Assembly (NCBI GenBank): GCA_008632985.1
Contig: QPGO01000010.1
Coordinates: 558,001-622,000, forward strand
DNA: 64,000 nucleotides
DNA from: Psammoneis japonica
Lineage: Eukaryota
Reading direction: 5' to 3'
Of this stretch, positions 1-54,600 are shown piece by piece; position 1 is the first letter of the stretch, and each line of letters opens with the position of its first letter. Made by a program: the position numbers and the translations under genes. Below the pieces are notes generated by a model. That model made no database searches. It was not told where the DNA came from and worked only from the letters and a program-made list of their open reading frames with translations.

Positions 1-1810
1 GTGCAAGTTCTGTCATTGTCACATGCTCACATTGCTGCCTGCAAACAAAAGGACCCAGCCAGTGAGCAAACTGCAGTCAATGATGGTGTGGGGGCACAGA
101 CAAGGCACAGCAACAAAATGAGGCATCATGACTTGGTTTGTGCTGCAGATGTTTGCAACAAGAGCTTCCCATGCCCACAGCGTGTTTCAGCACATTTTGT
201 CCTCTCACCCCCTTCTGGAGGAGCCAGCACACACTTGCTGCTCTCTTGCCAAAAATGCAGCTCAGCAAGTCAACTCTGCTCACATGTGCAAACAACTTTT
301 TTCCAAAGATGGCTTTGCTGCAGTTGCTCATTTGCAAGCATGGGGTGGAGCACCAGTTGGGAGAGTTGTCCATTGTTGTTGATCTGCAAGCCTGTTCCAG
401 CTCCAGGTGATCCACGATCCATCATGTGAGGTGCCAGCCAAAAAGTGCATTCAGCACAACAAACTTTTTTAATTTTGATTGTTTCAAAAATGGAAAGGTG
501 AGTGCACATTAAAAAAATTGTGCACGCTCACCCTTCTGAAGTTGGAGTTTGTTGTGCCAAATGCAAAAATGGGACAGCGATGCATCGTGCCCCTTTTTTG
601 GGCACCCCCTGGAGCTAGAGCAGGCCTGCAGCTGCACAAATCCAAAGATTGAAGCCCACTGCCAGCTGCAGATCCCTGCTTTAACTGGCAATTTTTAAGA
701 GCTGGATGTTGTCACTGACAAGAGCCAATCCATTGTTGCTGGTGGCGGTCATTTGGGAAAAAAGAGAACAAAATTTATGGACCACATTTGCCCACTTCAA
801 CCAGCCATTGAGACCAAAAGTGTTTCATTTGATGGAAGACAATTGCTGGTTGTGGCCACAGCACAAACACTCATTGTTGAGCAAATGCAGAACCTTGCCA
901 TTGCCTGGATGTTGATTGCAGCACCACACACTGTGTTGTTGTTGTTGTTGTTGCGAGGGACCATCGCTCTGCAACAAGAACCTTTGCAGGTGAGCAACAC
1001 AGCCTCCCCTCCCCACTGCCACCTCTGCCCTCCCTTGAATCTCTCTGCCCGTCACTTTCTTAAATTTTTTCTGGACATCTTACCCACCTGGGAGGGTTGT
1101 CAGTGCTGTCTTGAACTGCCACATGCTTGCAAGTTGTTGCCAAACATTGCCACGGGGAGGTGAGCACTGGTTTTGCCATCTTTTTTGTGCAGCTCTGGCA
1201 CTTTTCTCTTTCTTCAAACATCGCCACATTGACGACAGAGGAGCTCCTCTCTCCTTCTTTTTTCCATGTGTTGTGCACTTGTCAATGTTGTCAGGTGACA
1301 GCTGTTGACCACACACAACAACTCTCTTGTTTTGATGTTGTCAATGTCTGCAAAATTCAGCAGCAGTCTCTCCACACCATGCCATGGGATCTCTTTTCTC
1401 TCTTTGAGCATGTGCATCATGCCTCTCAAAGCTCTGCACAGCTGCTGGTCATCTGCCCCTTGAAACTCAACACACCCATGTGTTTTTGGACAGCAGATGC
1501 ATTCCTTTGCCCACACAGGCTCAAATTGTCTCTCTAAAATCACTGGTGAAAACGTGTTTGTTCTTGGTCCCCACACCAGCACACACTGGGCTTGTCCAGC
1601 TATCAAATTGCATTTCAATGCAGCATGATTCTCTCGAAGCTTTTCCGAGTCCTTTTTGCACACAATCATGGCAGAGAGGAACTGGTGGACAGCACATGCA
1701 TCATTCATGGTGTCACAATGTCCTCAAGTCGAGAGTGCCGTTCACTTGGCCGAGAGGAAGCCGCGTGTGCAATCCATCCACTGCAATCAGCGTGCGTTTG
1801 AGGCAGTCGA
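1..1810. repeat. Hypermutated, TpA-depleted repeat or degenerate-gene block
   Basis: Almost no TA and few CG dinucleotides, with a strong TG/CA excess. All ORFs are Cys/His-rich and Tyr-free. Normal composition resumes by about 1.95 kb. Confidence 0.7.
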
Positions 1811-2034
1811 TCTAATCAAATCCAAATCACGATGGCACGCTAATGGCACGACATTGAACATGGGCACGCATCCAGCACAAAGCACAATCTACACTGAACA
1901 TTGTTGAACGTTGAACATTGAACCTTCACTGCGGCGGTTGTGGAGTCAGGGGGTCACATTGCCTCTCCTTTGGTTGTTACCGTTGTATTCTGCCTTGATT
2001 TCTACTCCTTGAGCCAATTCTTTCTTTGCTTATC

Positions 2035-3028: not shown

Positions 3029-4209
3029 CTATTCTGTAATACGCTTGGAAAGGGAGTCTTCACTTGAATTCTCACTGCTGTCATACCATTGCTGAAACCG
3101 CTGTTGTTGTTGATACTCATTTTTCTCAAAGTGGCAATGTGGCATGCTGTTGTAACTAGGATTGTGTTGCGGCATCTCATACGGCAAAGATGGTACATTG
3201 GTCGAATACAGGCCATCATTACATGACACTTCGCGCACAGCCTGTCCTGTTTGTTGTGCTGGCTGGAAGGAATGGCCTGCGTTGGTCCTCGTTACCAGAA
3301 TACCATGATGCGTTCGCATGTATGAAAAGCCACTGTCAATTATGTGCATTTTCTTCAATTGCTTTCGTCGTCTTCGCTGCAAATAGATACATCCGGCTAG
3401 AACGATGGAAATCAGAACAATCGAAATTCCAAAAGCAATAAAACCTTGTTGTGATTTGGCTTGGCGCTGGACACGTAATGCACCGGCTCCCGTCAAAGCG
3501 CAACCCAGCACACGGTCCGTTGTGGAGTTCAGCGGCCGAACCATGCGAATTCTTATATCAGGTGATGCTTGTATATCTTTCTCAGTCGCCACTGTCGGTA
3601 CGGTGTATGTTATGACTGTTTGATAGTCGCCAGGTTCCGGACAGTAGTGTGGTCCATCTTTGGTGTAATCATCATTAGTTGTTGCAAAGTCAAAATCATC
3701 AAATCGCGTGTTCTTTCCCAAGGAACAAAGTTTGACACGGTCATAAACAGGAGAAAACATGCTACCAAAAAATCCCGAATGGATAGTGACGTAGACGTTT
3801 GTCAAGTTGGTGCGATTGATCGTATCTTTGTGCGAAAAGCGAGAAGGTGGAGAAAAAGTGAGCAAGACATATGAGTTTGAGACGCGTTCGATTGATGATG
3901 CGGCATTATAATGCAACTAAGAAGTTCAATAGACTCACAGTAAACATTTAGCTTTGCTTTGTCCCCTTGTTTACATGATGGGCTATCCTCGTACTCTCGC
4001 GAGTATGCACCGTTCGTGTAATAAAACTTGGGACTTGTGCATGTTACAAACACGGACGTGACTGTAATCGCATTCGCACTACATACACTTGTCACCATAT
4101 CTAGTTCTCCAGAATGGAGATTCCTGTCGACAGCTGCAGCTATCCGTTGTCGTTTTTGCATCGTTGTTGACATCTCTTCCTCGCTTTGAGTTTGCTTTAT
4201 CATGGTCAT
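3029..4209 (-). CDS. Uncharacterised single-pass membrane protein with a Cys-containing ectodomain
   Basis: Two exons (4209-3939, 3825-3029) join in frame across a GTGAGT...AG intron at 3938-3826. Transmembrane segment 'FIAFGISIVLISIVLAGCIYL' is followed by RRRRK. The start codon is uncertain. Confidence 0.7.
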
Positions 4210-4499
4210 CACGATGCAAATGGCGAGGACCAGAACTGCTTCACTTCGACGATATGTCCAAGATATGTCGGAATCCTAAATAAATTTACCCGCCAAATTG
4301 GCTTATATAATTACGAGACTCGCCAAATATTATATCATATATTCAAATTTTAATATTTTAATAATGAAAATTATATGCCAAAGACATTTATGTCACTCTT
4401 AAGTTACAGTATATAAATTGTTCGCCAAAGTTCACGGCCGCGCGCCGGTCGAAGAAAAATAATCTCATCATCCTCACAAAGGATCAGTTACAGGCAGTG

Positions 4500-4775
4500 T
4501 GACAGAAACTGAAGGCAAATGGCAAGAATTCAAACAATAACTCCTTACTGCTGTCTAAATAGCAGATGAGTCTCCGCTCAGAGACCGTTACAGGAGCCGA
4601 AAGACGTGTAAGTCGGTATAATCGGGCTACTGTTGTCATTCTTGTGAGCCTTGTGGCTCAAAAGCAAACTGCATCGCGCGCGAACGCGCGGAACTGAAGC
4701 ACACAAAACTGTGCGCGGCAAACTAAACAGCGCGCGATACTTCGCGCGCATCCAAATCCTGTTCAAATCCTGTCA
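4500..4775 (-). repeat. 3' LTR
   Basis: Direct repeat of 9921-10196, with 13 transition mismatches by my manual alignment. Confidence 0.97.
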
Positions 4776-7700
4776 CTCCCCAGTTTGCTTGAGGAGCCAC
4801 AGAAACAGATTCGACTTCGGATGGAATGAAGTTCCAGAACATGAGGGGGCGGAGAAGGTCCCAGATTTGGGAGCAACCCCAATGCTTGCTGAGAATGTCA
4901 GCAGGGTTGCGGGAGCCTTCGATGAAGTGGAACTCAAGGTAACCAGAGGCAATTGCCTCACGCACACGGTGGAACGACAGTGCGGTGTGTCGCTTGTGTA
5001 ACTTGGAGTGCGGGATGGTGGCACTGTCTACAACCGACTTGTTGTCACCGAACATGTAACTGACATTACGGATCGGGACGCCAAGGCAGCGCAGGGTGAT
5101 GCGCAGGTCGACAATCTGCTCAACACAATTCCTTGCGGCAACAAATTCAGACCCGCAGGTTGCAGTCTCCACGGTGGCTTGTTTCTTGGAGAACCAATCA
5201 GCCGGGAATTTGTTGAGGAAGTGGAGCATTCCCATGACAGAGCATCCGGTGAGCATGCAATGGCACAAGTTTGCATCGACGCAGTGGGTGGTAGTGACGA
5301 ACTTGCCAAGGGGCGGTGGAGCGTCCTTCGGGATCATCTCTTCTGCTTCACCACACACGGAATGCATCCATTCACAGGCCGGAGCAGGGAGATCCGAATG
5401 GTCAGGCTCTTCCGTGCGAACGCGGAGAGCACCGTGTCGCATCTTGGAGAGGTGCCCACAGACGCGTTTGGCACGATCCAAGTGGCCTTGACGGGGCGCA
5501 GCTCGGAAGCTAGAGAGTGACATGACGGCCGTGGCAATGTCAATTCGACCAAGGGACACTGCCCATTGGAGTGAACCAACAAGAGACTGGAACTTGTGAA
5601 TGCCATCGGGTCCCAGCAGTTCGGAAGTGTCCAGTTCGGGGTGGTCACCCTTCTCTAGAGGTGACAGGGCGTTGGTGGCAGGTTTCTCCCCAAACAGTCG
5701 GGCGTGGCTGTCGACCATGCGCTCGATGCACTTGCGCGGAGACAGGCACAAGGTTCCGTCGGGGTCCCGGGAAAAGTCGCAACCCAGATGGAACTCAATG
5801 GGTCCCGTGCCCTTGAGCTTGAACTTGCACTTTTCCGTGAGAGTGTCGACGAAAGGTTGAGGGTCCTTCATGGCAATGGCGAGGTCATCCACATAAACGG
5901 CAATGTGTTCACAGTGGTTGCCGTTCCTGCGCATCCAAATGTCGGGTTCAGCGCGGCAGGGGAAGAAGCCTTCAGCTCGCAGGCAGTCGGCGAAGCGTTC
6001 GTGCCAGCAGAGACCGGAGCTGCGCAGTCCACACAGTGCCTTGTGGATGACAAGGATGTGTCCTTCGAGTTTGCCAAATTCGGGTCCAGCTACAATGTAA
6101 AGCTTCTCCTTGGTGGTGGCCTCAAGGTGGGCATTGCCAATGTCGGTGGCCCATGTCTCCAGCTCGTTGAGTTCGGCCAGGAAAATCATCAGCCGAAGGC
6201 CACGAAGGGAGACTACTCCGGAGTGGACACTGTCGACAGGTACGTCCGTGAGGTGCCCGTCGGCTGCGAGTCGTGCCTTGTGGCGACCGTCGTGTTTCAC
6301 GTCGCACACCAGGTGCACTCGGATCTTCTTGTGTCCCGCAGGAGGAGTGGAAGACTTGAAGGGCCCGCAGTCATGGAAGACTTCGTATTCGTCGAGTTGG
6401 TCCATCTCGAGATTAGTTGCGTCTCCCCACTTGCGGTTGCCGCTGCATTCGTCTAGTGACATGGCGTGTTTGCAGTTCCGGGGAACTTCGCATCCGCACT
6501 TGTAGCGAGGTGCAGTGCGGAAGGAGCGAAGCTTGGCTTGGTTGGCCATGCGAAACAGTTTCTTTTGGCGCCTCGCGACAGTGCGGAACCGCTTCCAGCC
6601 ATCCGTGTCGAGGAGTCCGTTCTCTCGTGCATAGATGGCACAGGTGACGGGGTCGTCCTTGGCGATGATGGCAAGAGGCTCGGACGTGATCTCCCCACTT
6701 TCCCATTCAAGCATGATGTTGTAGCTTGAGCCTTTCCAGGTTGGGTCGTGAGGCTTCAGAGGTCCTTCGTGTGACACGATGCGTCGAAATTTCCAAACAG
6801 TGGTGTCTTCGTCTTCTTGCTCAATGTGATTCATGATGTCATTGCAGGCAAGGACTTCCTCGTGTTCGTCATTGTTGACAGAGCAGACGAACTTAGTGAG
6901 CTCGGGATTGCCGTTCACTTTCCATTCGTGGTCTTCGACGGCCTTGACGATGCGAGCTCTGTGGCGTTGTCCGTCCTCTTGTGGCTGCATGAGGAAGGTG
7001 CGTCCAATGATGTCTTGCGGATCGAAAACTGGCATCTTGGGTGTCCTGATCTCCCCATCAGGAGAATCGACGGGGTTGTCGTCATGGCGAGATTTGATGA
7101 TGGGTTCAGGTGGCTCCCCATCAGGAGGATCAAGACGCAGGTTTCGAACAGCAGGATCGGGGGTGGCGGAGTGAACGTTGGACCGGTGGAGGATCTTTTG
7201 AGTCTCGTCAGATGGGATCTTGAAGGTCATCTGGTGGCCAACGTGCTCAGCAATGCCAACGAAGCATCCGCGCAACTCATGGGATTCGGACGGCCAATCG
7301 GAGTCATCGAGGTGGAAGTGCACTGGTTCCCACCAGTGAAAGCGAAGCAATGGGCTGATGTCCGGGGTGGATCCAGTGAGAGTCTCGAGGGGCGTGCGCC
7401 AGTGGAGACGTGGGGATGCTGTGTGGTTGAGTGTGAAGCACACGCACATGAGCGCCAGCAGCCATGTGTGGGCGGGCGAACCAAAACGGTCCATGACAGT
7501 GTTCGCCATGCGCTTCACGGTCTTTTCCGAAATGGCGTCCACATGTGCAGCGGAGTCACCACAGTCAGCAGGAGTCGTGTTGGACAAGTTGACATCACCG
7601 TCACTCCCAAGGTGTTGGTCGTGAAGGTTGGCCGCAACAGACTCATGGCAGTCACTGGCTCGCGGGTTGCGGGGAGGCGGACGAGAGTGCTCAAGGATGA

Positions 7701-8979
7701 TCGCCTTGGAGGAATCGGGCAACGAATCCCAGAGCCGTTGGTGGTCGGGAGGGAGACGTCTCCATTGGACACCGGTGAGGCTGGGACCACGGGTGCAGGC
7801 AGCATTGGCTTGAAGGACGTCAACGTCGCTGTCAATGTCGCAGAACACATCGTCGGACGGTTCCTCGGAGTGGACGTCGTGTGCGCACATGGCGCGTCGG
7901 GGAGCTCGAGGTGTCGTCTTGGGTTGAAACGTGCTGTCGCACTGAGCTGCCGCGGAGAGGAGCAAGCCACAGTGTTGATCGCATGTGAGGCTCTTGCCAC
8001 TCTGCGCACGATGCTGATCAGCTTGGTCCTTGACAGCACGGAGTTCCTCGACAGGGTGCACGGCATTCTCGAGCATGACGCGCTTCTGTCCTTCAGAGAA
8101 GTGGTCACTGGCGGGGATGAGTGCCTCGCACTTGCGCAGCTGATCTTGCCAATGAAGGATGAACCCGTGGGTCGGACCTTTCCAAGTGCCATCACCAAGA
8201 CGTGCGGTGGTGAGGCATGTGAGCAGGGTGGAGGACTCGACAGATGCACGGGTGGAGGCAAGCGCGCATTCAGACAAGGAGCGGCAGACGGTCTGTGCGT
8301 CAGAGGACCCCACATTTTCGCGAATGAGAGCCTTGCCCTTGTCGGTGAGAAGGATGCGTTCGAAGACGGCGAACATGTGCTTTTGCTGTTCAGCAAAGAG
8401 CAGTTTGTCTTCGGGGCTGGTCGGTTTGTACGACGAGTCTAGAATGCACTCGACGTCTTGGGCACGGGCTTGTGCCACAAGTGAGGTGTGCCAAGTGTGC
8501 CACTGCTTGTCGGATTTGAGAGCCATGAAAGCGGTGGGATCACGCTTGATGCCTCGCTTGAAGTCTCGCACCGGGTCGCGTGCCTTGGTCGGGTTGGTGA
8601 CATGTGGAGGTGCAAGGGGTGAGCTGCCGATGGACAGAGAGGACATGCAGTCCGGGCTGAGGCGGCAGGCAAGGAACTCGTCATGCGTGAACAAAGAGGA
8701 GTCGTTGGCAACGTCAAGACCTTTGTGTGCTTTGACAATGCACAGGCTGACCAGTGCTGCTAACATGTTCTTATAACCACGGGGCAAAGGGATCACATTG
8801 GTGCCGTTGTCGCACTCAAGCGAGTCGATTTGGGACGGTGTGAACGTGAACAGTTCCTGATGCGAGTCCGTGCCGTCTTGGGCCAAAGCCAAATGAAGAG
8901 GACTCCCAGCACCTTGGGCAAGCACGGTTCCAACAACGTGCTCGAAACCATCGGTTTGTTGCTGACGAGTGAGAACCAT
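4723..8979 (-). pseudogene. gag-pol polyprotein (gag, C-terminal part of integrase, RT, RNase H); open frame but probably non-functional
   Basis: RT motifs 'DVKHDGRHKARL', 'DIGNAHLEA', 'KALCGL', 'YVDD'. RNase H motifs 'SKKQATVETATCGSEF', 'GDNKSV', 'NPADILSK'. A chromo-like segment 'WKFRRIVSHEG...LEWESGEITSEP' is present. No protease or integrase HHCC/DDE core is visible. Many expected Tyr residues read His or Cys. Confidence 0.9.
4776..4786 (-). other. Polypurine tract
   Basis: The minus strand reads AAACTGGGGAG immediately before the TG of the 3' LTR. Confidence 0.8.
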
Positions 8980-9903
8980 GGCAGACAAAAGTGGTGTCAG
9001 GACAATCAATTCTGGTTGGGAAGCGAAGGTGGACTCGAAACTTGGGTGAGAACAGACTTGACTTGAAACAGACTTGACTTGAAATCTTGAACTGTCTTAA
9101 AATCAGAAGTCGCCGGGCTTTGTCATCCCGTTCGTTGTCAAGTGCTGAACTTCCCATCCGGTCCGTAGAGTTGTGCCGGCACGTCCGAACCCGCAGCTGG
9201 CGGCGCTTTGGGTTGCTTGCGAGCGGAGCAGCGGGTTGCAAACCCCTGCAGGTGAGCTGACCAGAGGTGGACAAGACCCCCGAACCGTTCTCATTTTAAA
9301 TCGGTTGGATTTCCCGATCAGGCTGGCCAGTTGACGCAGGCGTCAGGTGCTGTGGACGAACGAACAAACGCGGGAAAGCACCCTCGCCCCAACGCAGGCT
9401 GCAATCACGGCTGCTTGCTCTCACAGTCGTCCTCGTGGACCTGGTAGAACTGCAGAGCACCAGCAGTCCGGGGTGGATCAGGTGCAATGGACTCGGTGTG
9501 CTTGTAGAGTGGCAGCAAAACCGCAGTCCGAAGAGTGGGTACAGGTTCTTGGCCGTGAAGACATGCATATATGTGTGCATGTCTTCAGCGACGAAGATCC
9601 TTGAATATGTGGGGTTCTTGACCGTTAACCGATGAACAGGTATATCAAGGGATGAGGATCAAGGATAGACTTGGATATGACCGTTGAATGTATGTCTTCA
9701 GCGATCAAAGGTAGCACAATCAAACCAGATGTCCAGCGGTAAGGAGACTTGACGGTGACGTTAACTTCCTGCCGATGCCCTGGCATTGGATGCGCGTAGA
9801 CTTGCCGATGTATGTAGAACATATACGGAGGTCCACGTAGAATTGAAATAGCGTCGTTGGTAAATCAACGACGACGATGGCGGTTGCTCAATGGGTTGAC
9901 AAT

Positions 9904-9920
9904 GAGCAAGACTGTTAATC
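9904..9920 (-). other. Putative primer-binding site complementary to a tRNA-Asn(GUU) anticodon arm
   Basis: The minus strand after the 5' LTR reads GATTAACAGTCTTGCTC. Its complement GACTGTTAATC is an Asn anticodon stem-loop sequence. Confidence 0.55.
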
Positions 9921-10196
9921 TGACAGAAACTGAAGGCAAATGGCAAGAATTCAAACAATAACTCCTTACTGCTGTCTAAATGGCAGATGAGTCTCCGCTC
10001 AGAGACCGTTGCAGGAGCCGAAAGACGTGCAAGTCGGTGTGATCGGGCTGCTGTCATCATTCTTGTGAGCCTTGTGGCTCGAAAGCAAACTACATCGCGC
10101 GCGAACGCGCGGAACTAAAGCACACAAAACTGTGCGCGGTAAACTAAACAGCGCGCGACACTTCGCGCGCATCCAAATCCTGTTCAAATCCTGTCA
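9921..10196 (-). repeat. 5' LTR
   Basis: Direct repeat of 4500-4775, followed by TSD CAGTG. Confidence 0.97.
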
Positions 10197-10259
10197 CAGT
10201 GCGTGGCTCTCTCCACTCTAGAGCCAGCTGCAAGAGCCAGGAGTAGAGTAGAGAGAAAG

Positions 10260-11000
10260 AATGCAGAGCGAGCAATCAGCACACACAATGCTTTTGCAAG
10301 CCGAGGTCTTCTTGCTTGGATCGTCTTTGAGCTGTCACTTGCTCACACCCTGCCTTCCTCTCTTGCAAGTGTGCCGCCCAAACCTTTGCACGCAAGCCTG
10401 TGCTTCTTCTTCCAGCACATCCACTTGGCATGGGCACTGTGCACAACCACCGGTGTGCAACAGTGTGCAAGCTGTGCTGTTTGGAGGTTGCAAGGCATGT
10501 GCCATGGGGTCAAGAGCAGCTGCAGTGTGGGCACAGCAGCAGCGCAAGCTCACAGGTGTGTGGTTGTTGTTTGCAGCAGCAGTGGCATCATTGGCCAGAA
10601 AAACAGGCATGTGTGAGAGAGCTCTCTCTGCCTTTTTCTGGCGTGATCTCTGGGGTGCCACCCTGTGCGATGGCAGCAACACTTGGCTCACTTTCAACAA
10701 GCAGCACTGACAGCACATGATGTCTTTCCAGGTGGCAGTGCTTGCAACAATGTGTTCTCTGCTGCTGTGGCCATGTGCTTGTGACACAAAAAAAGCCACT
10801 GCACACGTCTGCACCCCCAGCCACAACAGAGAGGAGAGAGAGCTGGCGGGAAGAAGAAGGCAAAGGAAAAAAAAGAGAGGTCGGCACACACATGTGTGCA
10901 CTTTGGTTTCCCTCTCCCATGCAGTGCAACACATTGAAAGTCCCTTGACCTCCACCTTTCCATTTGATTGAAGAGCACAACAAGAATGAATCACAAATTT
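10260..11000. repeat. TpA- and CpG-depleted block flanking the retrotransposon
   Basis: No TA seen between about 10260 and 11295. Strong TG/CA excess and no recognisable protein. Confidence 0.6.
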
Positions 11001-11424
11001 GCTTGATTGGTCGAGCGAATCATCGAAGGATCTTCCGTGCGTGCCGCCGCGTGGATGCTTGTGGATGTTTTCGCGCGTGCGTGGAATCATCCAAAATGTG
11101 GCGCATCGTGGCGAGTTGCATGCGAGACGGGCACGTCGTGTGGTTTGTTGCGTGTCAACCTGAACGACGATCCGCAGTCTTTCTCCTTCCTTCGCCACGA
11201 CTTGTTGCATCCAGGCAAGTGAAGAAGGAGTCGGCTCACAAGTCCACCCAGCTCGATCTCTTTTGCTGTTTCAGAGAAGAGTTGATTTCGTTCCTTAGAG
11301 AAGAAAGAAGCGACGAGAACGAACATACCGTTTCCGTTTTTCGATAGATACTGTTGAGCTCCCGGCTCAAAACCCAATAGAATCGGTGCTTCACAACCCC
11401 CAAAACAAAAGAGAACGAGTAAAC

Positions 11425-14400
11425 ATGGCCAACAGAGGCGGTGCAAGCATGGGCGATCTGTTTTCGCAGCGTCGGGCAGCACGAAAACAACAGCAGCAGC
11501 AAGGGCTGCCTCGAGAAGAAAGTGGCAGTAGTGGTCCTCCAAAACGTACGAGCTTTCTGGACATTCAAGCTCAACAAGAAAGAGAGCAACAACAAGAGCA
11601 GAGATATCAGAGTAGTAGTGGATCTTATCGATCGAACCGGAATAGAGACAGAGACAATAGCTATTCCTATGGAAGTCGTCGCCAATACCAAGAACAACGC
11701 TATCATGATGACTTGCCTCTGGAGTGTGGGTTGGTCTCGTCGCTGAAGGAATCCTTTGGATTTATTTATTGTGCAGATCGCCCGGAGGAATTGTTCTTTC
11801 ACTATTCTCAATTGGCAGATCAACGAGAATCTCTAAACATTGATGATGAGGTCGAGTTTCGTGTTGGGCCATCGAAACGGGATCCTTCGAAAATGGCCGC
11901 TTTTCAGGTGCGTCGCTTGGAGCCTGGAACGATTGTGTGGGAAACAGAAGAAGAACCTGGGAAGCGATACCGTGGAACTGTAAAGCAACCACCGATGATC
12001 TCTCGAGCGTCGGATCAAAGCTCAGAAGGAACTATTCGAGTCTTAGAAGAAGATGAAAACGTGAATGATGGTGAGGAAGGAGAAAGCGCTCTTTCTTCAG
12101 CGAAAGGCCCTGTGGTTCGATTTCTTAGTCACGAATACATTCCCACCGAAAGCGAAGGCGGAGAAAGTCGGAGCTTTCGTCGTTCCGATAGTGGTAGACT
12201 TGGACGGGGTGATTTGGTGGAGTTTATTATCGTGACGGAGCGTCGTACAAAGCAAAAAATGGCAAAGTCTATCACGTTGATCCAATCAGAAAGGGAGCGA
12301 CAGCGACTGATCAAGGAACAAGAATTACTTGCCAATGCAACTAGTGAACAGGGAATTGTCAAGACACTGAAAAAAGATTTTGGCTTTTTGAGGAGCAACC
12401 GTCGTAGAGAGGAAGTGTACTTTCATTATTCCAATGTCGAATTGCCCGACGACAACGAAAACGGAGAAGAGTTTGTGCTCAAGGAGGGCCAGGAAATGGA
12501 GTTCCTTGTCGTGACTGAGGGTAGTGGGCAAAATGAAAAAGTGAGTGCTAGACAGGTCAAGTTCTTACCAAAGGGTAGTGTGGTGTTTCACACTCAGGTA
12601 GCAGAGGGTGTCACCGGGGTCGTCAAAAGGTGTCCTCCGCCCCCAGGCACCAGTTACGGCGGTGACCCAGCAGTGGGGTCTTTGCGTCTTACCACACCTA
12701 TTGAGCTCGGTCAAGACGAAGAGAATGACGAGGCTAAAAGGGTTGTGGACGAAGTTGTATTTCAGGCAGAAGATGCACCTGGAGGCTTCTACTCGACGAG
12801 CCGTGATGGTTTATCCAAAGGGTTGTGGATAAAGGAGGGCGACACACTCCTGTTTGATGTTGTAAAAGAAGTTGTGGATGACTCATACTGCGCTGTCCCA
12901 ACGAGACACAAAATACCCTTGGAATCTCAATGCATGACAGACTCGCAAGAGGACGACACGAATGATGGCAATATGATTGAAAAGGCCATTCGCGTCGTCT
13001 CGCTATCTCTGTCGGGGCGAGCCGAAGGGGTGGTTCACGCTATCAAGGATAACTACGGTTTCATTAGTATAGCAGAACGGCCAGTGGACGCATACTTTCG
13101 GTTGTATGAAGTGCTCCCAGATTCGATGCAGTCGGATTTACGTAGGAGCTTGAAGATTAGCGAGGAACCCATGCAATTAAAGGTCGGGGCGGAAGTGCAG
13201 TTCGATTTGTGGCTGCAAGGAAGGATACCGGGATCTTCAAGTCATCACGGCACTTCCTCGAGAAAGGGAGGTGATAAGGACAGTTTGAAGGCACAACGAA
13301 TCTTATTGTTGCCGCCTTCCACTATTATTCAGACAAAGGTATTGGCAAAAGACGTGAAGGGATTTGTCTCTAAAGAAGATCCTAATCAGCCCTACTCCGG
13401 GCTGATTGAGTTAGAAGACGAGCTCAAGTCGATGCCTCTGGAAGAGCTTCATCCCCTCGCCACAAAACTCATAAACTCCTTTCTTGCAGATGAGGGTAGT
13501 GACTCTCTGATCTTTCCCGATCTCCAAAGTATTAAAGAAGACCAGGTTGTGATGAAAGTCGTCGATACTCTCGGTCACGGCGAGCTGTCTTGCAGTTACA
13601 TACCAGTTGCTAGCGGTGAGGCGAATCATCCAGGGAGACTGTGTATAAAGAAGGAAAGGAAGGTTGGACCGAATGGGGATTCAGATACTCGTGACGCTAG
13701 CCATAAAGAATCCGACGAGAATCTGGAGCCAGACAGTGAGGAAGCGAAGAGTCCTTCAAACAGCAAATCCGCCAAGAAGAAAAAGAGGAAGCCATACAAG
13801 GTCAAATCTCTTAAGCTGGTACGGTACGACAAGCATAGCCTCTCGAAAGAGCTTGAAAATGCTATGCCCCTTGGCATGGAAGATAAGGTTTTGTGTGACG
13901 TGATCCAATCAAGGAGAAGTGGTATGGTTTCGGTAACTAACATTCGAGTAGTTGAACGAAAACAAATTGAACGTGGAGCAAAGATCGATGAATCCGATAA
14001 ACAATCGGGAGTAGGGATCGTTTCAGAAGTAGTGACATCTCGTCAGTTTGGGTTCATTTCAATGGTTGACGAAACGGCGTCGAGGAGGGAGATGCTCTTT
14101 TTTCACACCTCAAGTGTTGTCACCGACGATGATCCTGACAAGCCTGCTTCTTCCAAAACACGTGGAGCCAATGGCGTCGTCCGAAAGGGCGACGAGGTGA
14201 AGTTTGACATTGGAGTTGGGAAAAATGGAAAGCCTGTCGCCAACCATGTCCATGTGTTGCCGCGCGGCACTCTGAACATTCCTACAAAAGCTGAGAAGAA
14301 TGCATGTAAGGGATACATCCTGATGGAACCGTCTCATACAAGCCTTTCAAACACGCCGTCAAGGCATTCGTCGGGAAAACATTCCCCGGCGGGAACTGGA

Positions 14401-15451
14401 CGATGGGCTCAGGTTGGAACCGAAGATTCAATAAAGAAGGCAGCAACGGGATCTAATGTGAAGGAGAACGGTTCCATTCTTCTCCTGTCTGATCCTGCTA
14501 ATCTTTTCGGTAGAATAACTCAAGACTCGAATCACGGTACAGCGAAGAGTAAAGAGACCAGTGTGGTTTCAGATGCTATTTCGGATGATAACAGTGGCGC
14601 AGCCGAAACGGTAGACACTGCTTCACCTCCCACCTTTAGCTTAAAGCGGCTCCCTTACAAGGCTGGTGCACTCGCCCTCCACGGCACCGGAGCATCTTCT
14701 CTTTCTGATTCATCCAGTGCTCCACGCCGAGGCGACCTTGTCTCGTTTGTGAGCGCAAAAGGAGGAAAGGGAGTTCGTGACATTCGGGTTGTGAATCGCG
14801 GTGCAGCAACCTTATTGCGGGGAAGACTAGAAAATATAGTCCTCGCAGGTTCTGCAGTGAAAACTGAACGGAAGGAGGACGAAAGTTCGGGCACTGCCAC
14901 GTTTATTGCTGCAACGGAAAAAGAGGAAGCCTACCAGATTGATCTGGACGAGGTTGTCAGCTGTGACCCATCCCTTCTCAAGAATCTTGAATCCGTTGAA
15001 GGTGTCCTGCACGATGGCCATATTTATGGTGTTTGTCGAACAACAGATTTGTACCTAGAGTCAAAGCTTGGCGCAAATCACAAGGAGCGCCCGCGTCTGA
15101 ACCTTACAGTTCGCAAAGAACTAAAGAATCGTGGGGGAAAGATCATGGCGCAATCCATGATGGCCAAGGTATGTTTGTCAGGACCCGTTGTATGCGTTCG
15201 CTTTCCTGTGCTCTACCTTGCGGTGCTAATCTTTTTTATGTTGTGCATTACTCTAGGGACCTGATGGGACGAATGGATTTGCCTCTGGCTGGACAAAGCG
15301 AACTAGTCAATATGTCGCGCATTCAGAGCATGAGTTACCTCCGACTCCAGGTATTTCTATCGATGAAGATGCGGAAAAAGAGGGAGGAGAAGAGCCAGAT
15401 AGTGTTACTGAGGAGGGTGGTGGCCATGACAACGAGGTTGTGGTAGCCTAG
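11425..15451 (+). CDS. CSDE1: Multi cold-shock-domain RNA-binding protein, CSDE1/UNR-like
   Basis: Repeated CSD motifs ('SFGFI...LFFHYSQ', 'DFGFL...VYFHYS', 'NYGFI', 'QFGFI...LFFHTS'). Intron 15169-15256 joins to 'GPDGTNGF', a SUZ-C-like motif. TAG ends at 15451. Confidence 0.85.
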
Positions 15452-39349: not shown

Positions 39350-41000
39350 TTAAAGAAAACATCCAGCCCACTTTTGCTCTGATAAATGAATAAAATGAAA
39401 GCCCTTGGGGGCTTCAAAACGGGGAAAGGTGTGAGAAACAACTTTGTTGCAGCTCGGGCGGCCGTGGAGCCAGGAGGAGCAGCTTGGTGTGGTGCAAGCA
39501 AGGTCCCACCCAGAGCTGGAGAGCATCAGATGACAGAAATGCATGTTTTCTGTCATTGTTCAGGTCCTCACACCTCTGGCATTTGGCACACAAAGTGTTG
39601 AGCCTTGAAAGGAAACTCTTTGAGAGGTGGTCCTCTTCTGTTTTTGTTGGGGAAACACAGCAAAAAATTGCAAAATTGACAAGCGAGTCCAAAGTCACTC
39701 CTTGCATCTCAACTAAAAGAGACATGAAACAGCAACAAGCCAGCACCACACACAAAGGCTTTGCAGGCCACCCTCTGACAATGCTGGTGTGCACTCAACA
39801 AGACACCATGATGTGTTTTGTGGTGCCTTGTGCCTTTCTCACCACATGAGAACATCAACATTTGCTTTGCATGAGTGGCAATGCTCTTGAGAAACTTCAC
39901 TTCAACACATGCCAACAAACAAGAGGATCTGAGCAAAGAAAAAGCAGGAGGAGTGAATGGCTTCTCTGGATCTGCTGGCGTCTTTCTTGCTGCTGCTCTG
40001 GCCAAGTGTGTGTGTTGCGCAAGAAGCCAGGCAGTGAAGGGAGTTCACAACAGGGCCCCAAAATGATCTGACTGCTCACCCTGTGGCAAGGGGTGCAGCA
40101 ATTTAGAAAAAGCCAGAATGCATTGAAACCTCAGCAAAGCAATTGATGCATTAAAAATTTCCATGTTGGCAGCACTTGTGTGTGTGTGTGGTGGGCAACA
40201 ATCTCTCTCATGTGATTGGCGCCAGCCCCTGACAGTGTGTGTCTGTTTGCAAAGAGAGTTTGTCACAACATTGATTTTGCAGCACAACATTTCAAAGGAA
40301 ACTCACTGAACAATGAGTTGAGAGCAGTGGTGGTGGTCATGTCGGCACTGTCTGGCAGAGCTGCAGGACATGAAAGGGACAAAAACAACAATCTTTTTTG
40401 CTGTTGCAGCAACTGCACCTTTCAAAGATTGCAGAAACGCCAATTGAAAAATGGCACAGGCTCTTAAAGCCAACACCAACATTTTGGCTTGTTGTCAAAA
40501 GGATGATGATGTTTGGTGTGTGTCTTTTGTGCATTTTTGCGCATCTGTTGCTGCTGTTGCACAGCATCATTTGAGGCAAAGCAGCGCTGCTGGAAAAGCT
40601 CCAGAGAGTCGCCACAGCCAGAGTGCGCACTTCCTCTTGGCTGCCACCAGTGTGCTGAATGCCTCCAGTGTTTGCCAGTGCAGGTCTGTCACAACTTCCT
40701 CAGTTTTCAGGGTGTGTTGGTGTGCACCTTGTGCGCCAGTTGGCTGGCTCTGCTGCTGCAAGACAGGCCCCCCAGCACGCACAGAAAGAGCAACAAACAT
40801 GTGGCGAGTGGTTTCCAGAGGCAAGAAGGGGAGGCAGGCAGTGGCATCCCCACCTCTGATGCTGCACATGCTAGCAGCTGGAAGCACCTGTGGTTGTAAG
40901 CAGTTGTCAACTGTTGTGATTTGTCATCCTTTTGGTCCCAAAGGAAATTCGGTGCGCTCATGCACATCCGCCCTGTGCTGAACCGCCAAAGTCAGTCATG
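39350..41000. repeat. TpA/CpG-depleted intergenic block, probably an eroded transposable element
   Basis: Sharp compositional switch between two normal genes. Only a handful of TA remain. No clear TIR or TSD found. Confidence 0.6.
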
Positions 41001-41316
41001 CGTTCCCTTGGACTCCTTCGACTAAAGCTGAAGAAGAATGACCTTCAGCTCGTGACTGGGCCCTACGGAGAGTCTACATACTATGATCCAGTACAAAACT
41101 GACAGGGAGTAGCATAGGTACTAGAATCGCCTGTGCGTAAGACAAAAGGTCGGTACGAGAAGCCTACGATCAAGATCCGTATTCACCCAAAGATCCCATC
41201 CGTCCGGTACTGAACGCCGTAGACATTACGTAGCTCGCGCTGAGGCGCTTTTGGAAGCAGCACGAAAAAGTGCCGCGAATTCATACCACTAATAACAAAC
41301 TGCCTAGACCGTCACC

Positions 41317-52986: not shown

Positions 52987-54600
52987 GGCTCTTCGTCTCA
53001 TTTCTAAATCTTTGACTGCCAGACATTTAAAAGCACACTAACACATCCACTGAATGTTGGTGGTGTAGCCCTCTGTCGGCTAACAAACCCCAGCTGAAAG
53101 CTCGGCCACCAGTTGGGCTAGAACCCCAGTTAGATTCGGTTGCATTGGCCCACAGGCACACCAGTGTGATTTAAACAGAACCCGGGCCCACGCCGCATGA
53201 GTTCGAATCACCAGCCTCTGCAGCTCCAGCCGATGCAACAGCATGGAAGAGCAACAGAGTTGCTCCAACGAGGTCCAAGCATGAGCTGCTGGCCACGACA
53301 CCCTTGCATCTGTGGCGTCTCAACCAGGTGGGTGGGAGGGAAAGAAACAACAGCCAAAGGCTTGAATCCTTCAAAAGCCGTGACAAACAATGTGCAATTG
53401 CAGATGTTGCGGAGGATCTTCACGCAGTTTTGAAGGTGCAACTTTTTATGAGACATGTCAGAGTGAAATGGAGGGAGAGCGAACAAGTGTTTCTGAAACG
53501 AGAAACGAGTCACTTTTGCAGTGGGAATCACTTTTGCAGTGGGAAGAGTGATTCGAACCCCGACAACTGCTGACACACCTTGACATTCTCGTTTTCCAAA
53601 AAGGGCTCTCCCTTTGCTTCTCATCCCAAATGCTGTAAAGTGTTGTGCTTGTCATTTGACAAGAGAATTCAACAAAAACAATCGCCGCAACAAACCGCGC
53701 GACTGAGACATAGAGTCAGTGAAAAATGTCCAGCCGCAGTCCACGATCAAGATGCTCGACTCAGTGCCTGGTGAAGCCAAAGGTGCAGATTGGCTCTTTG
53801 TCTCATTTCCAAATCTTGGGCTGCTGGACATTTAAAAGCACACCAACACATCTGCTGAATGTTGGTGGTGTGGCCCTCTGTCGGCTGACAAACCCTGGCC
53901 GAAAGCTCGGCCACCAGTGAGGCTAGAACCCCAGTTAGATTCGGCTGTGTTGGCCCATCAAGAACAGGCGCTAGTGATTTTAATGGAACCTGGGCCCATG
54001 CCACATGAGTTCAAATCACCAGCCTCTTCAGCTCCAGCCAATGCAATGGCGCAGAAGAGCAACAGAGTTGCTCGAAGAGCCAAGATGCAACCGACGAGGT
54101 CCAAGCACAAGCTGCTGGCCACGACACCCTTGCATCCATGGCATCTCAACCGGGTGGGTGGGAGGGAAAGAAAAAACAACCAAAGGCTTGAATCCTTCAA
54201 AAGCCATGACAAGACAATGTGCAATTGCAGATGTTGCAGAGGATCTTCACGCAGTTTCGAAGGTGCAACTTTTTATGAGATGATGTCAGAGTGAAACGGA
54301 GGGAGAGCGAACAAGTGTTTCTGAAACGAGGAACGAATCACTTTTGCAGTGGGAAGAGTGATTCGAACTCCGACAATTGTTGATGCCTTGACATTCTTGT
54401 TTTCCAAAAAGGGCTCTCCCTTTGCTTCTCATCCCAAATTGCTGTAAAGTGTTGTGCTTGTTGTTTGATGAGAGAATTCAACAAAAACAATCACCGCAAC
54501 AAACCGCATGACTGAGACATGAGTCAGTGACAAATGTCCAGTCGCAGTCCACGATCAAGATGCTCGACTCAGTGCCTGGTGAACCCGAAGGCACAGATTG
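52987..54600. repeat. Tandem duplication of about 805 bp
   Basis: Copy 1 spans about 52987-53791 and copy 2 about 53792-54600. They are collinear along their length and differ mostly by transitions. Confidence 0.92.

What the first reader, a model, noticed from the sequence alone, without database searches (positions are those of the whole stretch)
10960..11300. TpA loss extends beyond CpG loss at block edges, suggesting two processes and spreading into unique DNA
Seen: 11000-11295, just upstream of the CSDE1-like gene, is CG-rich yet has no TA until about 11296. A similar CG-retaining, TA-free fringe occurs at about 1630-1810 and 40940-41010. Block interiors lack both TA and CG, while the copia body lacks only TA. 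Inference: TA>TG/CA is the faster or wider-reaching process and CpG decay follows later, both converging on TG/CA. The mutagenic zone may leak a few hundred bp into gene promoters.
Basis: partly seen in the sequence, partly recalled or inferred. Interest (0 to 1): 0.7.

Follow-up and report, generated by a model that had tools for sequence, protein, structure and literature searches.

The report
TA erasure outruns CG decay
In this diatom, silenced DNA loses TA steps about 17 times faster than CG steps, so at the soft edge of such a region a short stretch of single-copy DNA in front of a host gene has no TA left while it still keeps its CG.

Summary
Observation confirmed. 11012-11295 has 0 TA and 28 CG, is single-copy in the assembly, and continues a TA/CG-poor block (10202-11011). 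Chance is 0.02% overall and about 1% in composition-matched DNA. The two other fringes are weak. The window is diatom DNA. 22 young copia LTR pairs give TA>TG/CA in 208 of 604 site-copies against CG>TG/CA in 23 of 928, about 17-fold faster, on both strands. In 664 kb, CG-poor DNA nests inside TA-poor DNA; TA edges lie a median 72 bp further out (null 14, p=0.002). One soft-edged domain with these two rates reproduces that median, so a wider reach is not needed. A two-copy gene elsewhere on the contig shows such a fringe directly: TA lost 10 of 12, CG 5 of 18. Against: no unedited allele of this fringe was found, its TG+CA excess is small, and the copia's other flank keeps all its TA, so leak is not universal. 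Same signature as the TpA hypermutation of Bigelowiella natans (2026 preprint); enzyme unknown. The scan noted this process and its leak before on other DNA of this genome.

The parts
11012..11295 (.). TA-free, CG-rich fringe; single copy; probable promoter and start of the 5' UTR of the CSDE1-like gene
   Evidence: 0 TA, 28 CG, 43 TG+CA; one match in G000; a contig of a run that behaves as RNA begins at 11232, a weak hint only
10202..11011 (.). Old TA- and CG-depleted block, single copy in the assembly, origin unidentified
   Evidence: 3 TA and 12 CG in 10205-11011; one match in G000; no Pfam family over cut-off in three frames tested
4500..10196 (-). Young copia LTR retrotransposon, about 1.4 kb shorter than its family; LTRs 4500-4775 and 9921-10196; 5-bp target duplication at 4495-4499 and 10197-10201
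   Evidence: RVT_2 E=5e-24; LTR differences 10 TA single, 1 TG/CA double, 1 CG, 0 other; at least 40 copies
9500..9920 (-). 5' leader of the copia, where TA is largely spared; the editing front differs between copies
   Evidence: 23 of 36 TA sites kept here against 0 of 14 at 7000-7999; fronts 0-1176 columns from the 5' LTR
4200..4499 (.). Left flank of the copia: TA-rich up to 11 bp from the LTR; counter-example to leak from TE ends
   Evidence: 28 TA in 300 nt
11425..15264 (+). Intact CSDE1-like cold-shock-domain gene with normal TA; intron at about 15167-15254
   Evidence: Pfam CSD and CSDE1; named homologs listed are diatoms; GT..AG joint
1730..1812 (.). Short CG-normal, TA-free fringe at the right edge of block 1, upstream of a Vma22/CCDC115 gene
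   Evidence: 7 CG, 0 TA; HMM offset +83; within the null spread
40950..41022 (.). Short CG-normal, TA-free fringe at the right edge of block 3
   Evidence: 6 CG, 0 TA; about 10% by chance

Best explanation
The fringe is the outer rim of a silenced chromosomal domain in which two mutation processes run at very different speeds. (1) Shown: after insertion, DNA in such domains changes TA to TG or CA on either strand, favouring purine-TA-pyrimidine sites, about 17 times faster than CG changes to TG or CA. (2) Shown on average and in one paralog pair: TA loss extends tens to a few hundred bases beyond visible CG loss, into non-repeat DNA. (3) Inferred: both processes follow one domain whose strength fades, or which has only recently advanced, at the edge; enough exposure to remove 95% of TA removes only about 16% of CG, which cannot be seen in 284 nt. 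(4) Inferred: CG loss is deamination of methyl-CpG, and active promoters stop the domain. (5) Speculative (about 0.35): TA loss is adenine deamination on chromosomal DNA by a TadA/ADAT-type enzyme.
For: LTR pairs, 22 of 22 with perfect target duplications: TA single 140, TG/CA double 34, TA shared 128; CG single 23, shared 441; other 14; ratio 16.8; TG 75 to CA 65, p=0.45. CG-only depleted DNA is 0.3% and 0.7% of two contig stretches against TA-only 10.8% and 36%. Edge offsets: 48 of 68 positive, median 72 against null 14, p=0.002. One-domain simulation with ratio 17 and 40-bp decay gives median 72.5; equal rates give -4 to 39. Paralog pair: copy A lost TA 7 of 8 inside, 10 of 12 in the fringe, 6 of 38 outside, and CG 12 of 18, 5 of 18, 1 of 27; an outgroup protein has Tyr at two fringe codons that read His and Cys in copy A. 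CG and TA loss share the LTR asymmetry (18:5 and 119:21) and correlate across copies (rho 0.48). The fringe holds 16 CG-adjacent product motifs, more than any of 56 far promoters (maximum 11).
Against: No unedited allele or ortholog of this fringe was found. TG+CA in the fringe is 43, near far promoters (38 +/- 6) and low against promoters edited in silico (53 +/- 7; 5 of 56 as low). The two most CG-rich far promoters have only 2 and 4 TA. Surviving TA beyond CG edges is not enriched for resistant contexts (p 0.09-0.95). 20 of 68 edges go the other way, and 15% are at or below -100 against 2-7% in the two-rate simulations. At matched leader sites CG loss does not differ between edited and spared copies (35 of 678 against 7 of 174, p=0.69). 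The copia's left flank shows no leak. No methylation data.
Confidence: 0.6

Rival explanations
1. The TA process has its own, wider reach: it is aimed independently of CpG methylation and rewrites unmethylated promoter DNA next to silenced blocks.
For: 28 CG kept in the fringe, above background; net CG balance between the paralogs in their fringe is 5 to 5; no CG difference at matched leader sites; 28% of edges are at or above 200 bp against 16% in the best single-decay simulation.
Against: Not needed to explain the median offset; copy A's CG loss is raised in its fringe, 5 of 18 against 1 of 27, p=0.03; shared LTR asymmetry.
Confidence: 0.2
2. This particular fringe was never edited: it is a natively CG-rich, TA-poor promoter that happens to sit beside a block.
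For: CG-rich far promoters can hold 2-4 TA; small TG+CA excess; with 68 edges examined, a 284-bp offset occurs in 5.6% of null edges.
Against: 0 of 56 far promoters lack TA; product motifs and GC exceed all 56; 2 of 261 matched windows.
Confidence: 0.15
3. The fringe is itself a young repeat copy that arrived TA-free.
For: Young TEs here are TA-poor and CG-normal; 10 of 23 fringes of 150-999 bp have a similar stretch in the DNA held.
Against: One match only in G000 for 10900-11400; near single-copy depth, 58, in run X1; no terminal repeats found.
Confidence: 0.05

Closest known systems
TpA-restricted hypermutation of integrated NCLDV and virophage DNA in Bigelowiella natans (Mettrop et al., bioRxiv 10.64898/2026.01.13.699255)
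   Same: TpA to TpG or CpA on either strand, regional, on chromosomal DNA, not dependent on a second copy (their NCLDV region is single-copy and was extended about 21 kb on mutation density); TpA-poor clusters enriched in TE domains.
   Different: Here a diatom; targets are LTR retrotransposons, dead gene duplicates and unique rims; paired with CpG decay (the word CpG does not occur in their main text); a flanking-base preference and position-dependent fronts are seen; no mutation-accumulation data here.
Repeat-induced point mutation (RIP) of ascomycetes and its leakage into single-copy DNA (PMC2973834)
   Same: Transition hypermutation concentrated in repeats, with leakage over hundreds of bases into single-copy neighbours.
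   Different: Opposite chemistry: RIP is C to T and creates TpA (recalled); this destroys TpA. Homology dependence is not evident: one of two paralogs is hit by position.
CG methylation of TEs in diatoms by DNMT5a (Hoguin et al., PMC9998398)
   Same: Provides methyl-CpG on LTR-copia islands, the likely source of the slow CG decay.
   Different: Explains nothing about TA; methylation was not measured in this genome, and the DNMT type of the 27 PF00145 matches was not determined.

Membership tests
Bigelowiella-type TpA hypermutation | A:T to G:C transitions confined to TpA | tested here: met
   LTR pairs: 174 TA-site differences, 23 CG, 14 other; rare A>G at AA, GA about 2 per 1000; direction confirmed by an outgroup protein
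Bigelowiella-type TpA hypermutation | Both strands hit (TpG and CpA products) | tested here: met
   75 TG to 65 CA
Bigelowiella-type TpA hypermutation | Regional, on resident chromosomal DNA, not needing a second copy | tested here: met
   LTRs diverge after insertion; one paralog of two is hit; block 10202-11011 is single-copy
Bigelowiella-type TpA hypermutation | About 1000-fold de novo rate, in a subset of lines | not testable with these tools
   Needs mutation-accumulation lines; only hint is 10 differences in 723 bp of block against 5 in 6526 bp of gene in run X1
Bigelowiella-type TpA hypermutation | Targets of viral origin; ADAT2-like candidate enzyme | tested here: inconclusive
   Targets here are TEs and host duplicates; TadA-like and ADAT2-like genes exist but look like the ordinary tRNA set
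RIP (ascomycete) | C to T at CpA, producing TpA excess | tested here: not met
   TA o/e 0.0-0.08 and CA/TG about 1.9 in blocks
RIP (ascomycete) | Triggered by pairing of duplicated sequence, both copies hit | tested here: not met
   23 TA lost in copy A against 5 in copy B of an 89% identical pair
RIP (ascomycete) | Leakage into adjacent single-copy DNA | tested here: met
   Edge offsets and paralog fringe; not at every edge
Methyl-CpG decay | CG to TG/CA raised above other transitions in TEs | tested here: met
   14.6 per 1000 at CG against about 1.1 at CC and CT
Methyl-CpG decay | 5mC present at the decaying sites | not testable with these tools
   No methylation data

The most novel reading that the evidence does not exclude
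Diatoms carry a TpA-specific DNA mutator, shared with Rhizaria, that is aimed independently of CpG methylation, reaches further than it, and rewrites the promoters of working host genes such as this CSDE1-like gene, making TE neighbourhoods a directed source of regulatory change.
Probability: 0.2. Interest if true: 0.85.

Novelty: new variant of a known kind. Interest (0 to 1): 0.58.

Why it matters
A regional mutator that turns A:T into G:C at TpA has been described in one preprint on one rhizarian alga; my eight literature searches listed none for diatoms. This genome supplies a rate relative to CpG decay, a sequence preference to match against candidate enzymes, and edges that say where the process stops. 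TA/CG content becomes a two-hand clock for dating silenced DNA, and host promoters beside such domains are predicted to mutate faster.

Tried and rejected
Ortholog of the fringe: the metagenome scan with the gene's first 332 aa found no relative; best protein homologs are 54% identical, too far for promoter alignment. Reads: run X1 shows no listed difference in 11012-11793 but is probably the same or a near strain; a 211-nt contig of X3 over 11195-11396 has one T>C and four gaps; neither shows TA in the fringe or tells whether the block is present. I first misread two short X2 matches as a second copy of 10403-10861; the depth table shows they are separate short matches. Resistant-context test outside CG edges: not significant. 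Tandem pair 52987-54600: both copies are already edited, 4 TA differences only. Flanks of 22 copia copies: 7 of 43 are CG-normal; 3 show TA recovering over 600-900 bp, 2 stay low, 2 show no loss; host identity of the 3 was not established (no Pfam hit in the frames tested). Tet_JBP search found nothing, but its control did not ring, so it is uninformative. Deaminase survey gave an ordinary-looking set. A YA preference as in evolved TadA (recalled) was not seen: CA>CG is no higher than AA>AG. Leak from the copia into this fringe rejected: the spared leader and the old block lie between them.

Full report
Setting. The window is G000:C6:558001-622000 of a 91-Mb assembly. The gene behind the fringe starts at ATG 11425 and carries cold-shock and CSDE1 domains. 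The named homologs listed among the best 120 of 215 hits are diatoms: Attheya, Mayamaea, Cylindrotheca, Amphora, Nitzschia, Pseudo-nitzschia.

The observation. There is no TA from 10250 to 11295. CG is scarce to 11011 and dense from 11012 (28 in 284 nt). In 224 kb of far-from-block DNA, 1 of 8576 TA gaps reaches 284 nt. Matched for CG of at least 24 and GC 52-58%, 2 of 261 overlapping windows are TA-free. None of 56 far promoters is TA-free (mean 14.8, minimum 2), but the two richest in CG have only 2 and 4 TA. So the main fringe is real at about the 1% level after matching. The 73-nt fringe at 40950 is about 10% by chance. Half of 1630-1810 belongs to a tandem-duplicated block.

Is it a repeat? 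10900-11400 and 10205-11000 each match only themselves in G000 (the search skips very common words). Run X1 covers 10239-11793 with one contig at depth 58, the level of neighbouring genes.

Rates. I held 22 copies of the window's copia family: the window copy, one more on C6, and 20 of the other 38 listed, taken from the top of the list. All 22 have perfect 5-bp target duplications. Between the two LTRs of each copy: TA single 140, TG/CA double 34, TA shared 128, CG single 23, CG shared 441, other 14. No LTR site showed both TA and CG, so doubles were counted as TA sites. That gives 34% against 2.5% per site-copy, a rate ratio of 16.8 (about 10-30); sites lost the same way in both LTRs are invisible, so this is a lower estimate for TA. 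Internal parts agree: 2143 of 3959 TA-site states edited against 412 of 10464 CG, though shared ancestry inflates both. Products are strand-symmetric (75 TG, 65 CA). In deep blocks retention relative to far DNA runs TTAA 0.57, CTAA 0.25, GTAA 0.11, CTAG 0.10, CTAC 0.07, ATAA 0.07, ATAG 0.013, GTAC 0.01, ATAC 0.004, ATAT 0. The first TA after the fringe (11296) is in a resistant context, so the true edge may be as far as 11326.

Edges. Separate two-state HMMs on 664 kb (464 kb of C6, 200 kb of C2) show CG-poor DNA nested in TA-poor DNA. Of 98 CG-segment edges listed, 14 were dropped for N or for an inner position, and 16 more had offsets of 1 kb or more. Of the remaining 68, 48 are positive and 20 negative; median 72 bp against 14 in 395 coincident-edge controls, p=0.002. 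The focal edge is +284; the window's other short offsets are +83, -47, +72, +73. A simulation of one domain with exposure decaying outward gives median 72.5 for ratio 17 and 40-bp decay, 267 for 120-bp decay, and -4 to 39 for near-equal rates. The observed spread is wider on both sides than any single setting, so edges are heterogeneous.

Direct test. C6:752898-754474 (copy A, at a block edge) and C6:725976-727562 (copy B) are 89% identical. Copy A lost TA at 7 of 8 sites inside, 10 of 12 in its 400-bp fringe and 6 of 38 outside (p=4e-5); it lost CG at 12 of 18, 5 of 18 and 1 of 27. A 42%-identical outgroup protein has Tyr at two fringe codons that read His and Cys in copy A, fixing the direction. 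TA loss thus runs past strong CG loss, by position rather than by repetition, with some CG loss in the fringe, as the two-rate model predicts (16% expected, 28% seen, interval 10-53%). Copy B has lost as many CG there, so the net balance is even; this is the weak point.

Where it stops. In most copies the 5' LTR and leader are spared (TA lost 119 to 21; CG 18 to 5), with a contiguous front at a different place in each copy. The window copy is reversed, 7 losses in the LTR beside the block against 3 (p=6e-5 against the rest), and its left flank keeps 28 TA in 300 nt. Context, not the element, sets the reach. Across leaders CG loss is 58 of 1181 on the edited side and 9 of 472 on the spared side (p=0.005), but at matched sites 35 of 678 against 7 of 174 (p=0.69).

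The focal fringe itself. For editing: 16 CG-adjacent product motifs against a maximum of 11 in 56 far promoters, and GC 0.55 above all 56; over 23 fringes products per CG are 0.39, close to substrate plus product in far promoters, 0.42. Against: TG+CA is only 43, and the resistant-context test outside edges is not significant. No unedited allele was found. In X1 the adjoining block still has TA at 10596 and CG at 10517 where the window has CA, so the block is polymorphic or still changing.

Mechanism. Shown: rates, strand symmetry, context, position dependence. Inferred: methyl-CpG deamination for CG, given DNMT5a-dependent CG methylation of diatom copia elements (PMC9998398; abstract and passages) and 27 methyltransferase matches here. 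Speculative: adenine deamination for TA. TadA-like and ADAT2-like genes are present but are expected in any eukaryote. T-side damage cannot be told from A-side deamination by sequence.

Literature. Mettrop et al. (parts 1-3 of 5 read, plus a term search; supplements not seen) describe the same signature in Bigelowiella natans; earlier notes of this scan led me to it. RIP leakage of at least 930 bp is cited in PMC2973834 (passages). Eight searches listed no diatom case (listings only). Earlier scan notes report the process, its leak and its lead over CpG decay on other DNA of this genome; they are not counted as support.

Verdict. The fringe is real and most likely the rim of a hypermutated domain. 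'Faster' is established, 'wider-reaching' is unproven and unnecessary, and leak is edge-specific. New variant of a known kind; interest 0.58.

Noticed in passing
window 1-1730 and L024 (C6:551594-555038): Block 1 is a tandem array that includes decayed copies of the neighbouring Vma22/CCDC115 gene region, with TA and CG turned to TG/CA.
   Followed up: partly
window 7523-7526: The window copia lacks about 1.4 kb present in most other copies yet keeps a 1457-codon frame with only 10 Tyr and 74 His.
   Followed up: partly
window 955-1677: Run X1 differs from the window at 10 of 723 bases in block 1 against 5 of 6526 in genic DNA, p=2e-7; several are TA or CG changes.
   Followed up: partly
window 4556, 4670-4724 (LTR): Some LTR TA sites are almost never edited (44 of 44, 42 of 44, 41 of 44 kept), mostly CTAAA; context or protein protection.
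   Followed up: no
window 52987-54600: Tandem duplication of about 0.8 kb at the edge of block 4 with TA mostly gone and CG half lost.
   Followed up: partly
L090:8240-10000: Same anatomy elsewhere: block, about 300 nt TA-poor CG-rich fringe, then a TLC-domain host gene.
   Followed up: no
G000 C297, C301, C10, C28: 27 matches to C5 DNA methyltransferase, several clustered and with internal stops: a possibly expanded, partly decayed family.
   Followed up: no
L107 (C41:504700-507500) and C317: Two adjacent dCMP-deaminase-like matches, repeated on a second contig.
   Followed up: no
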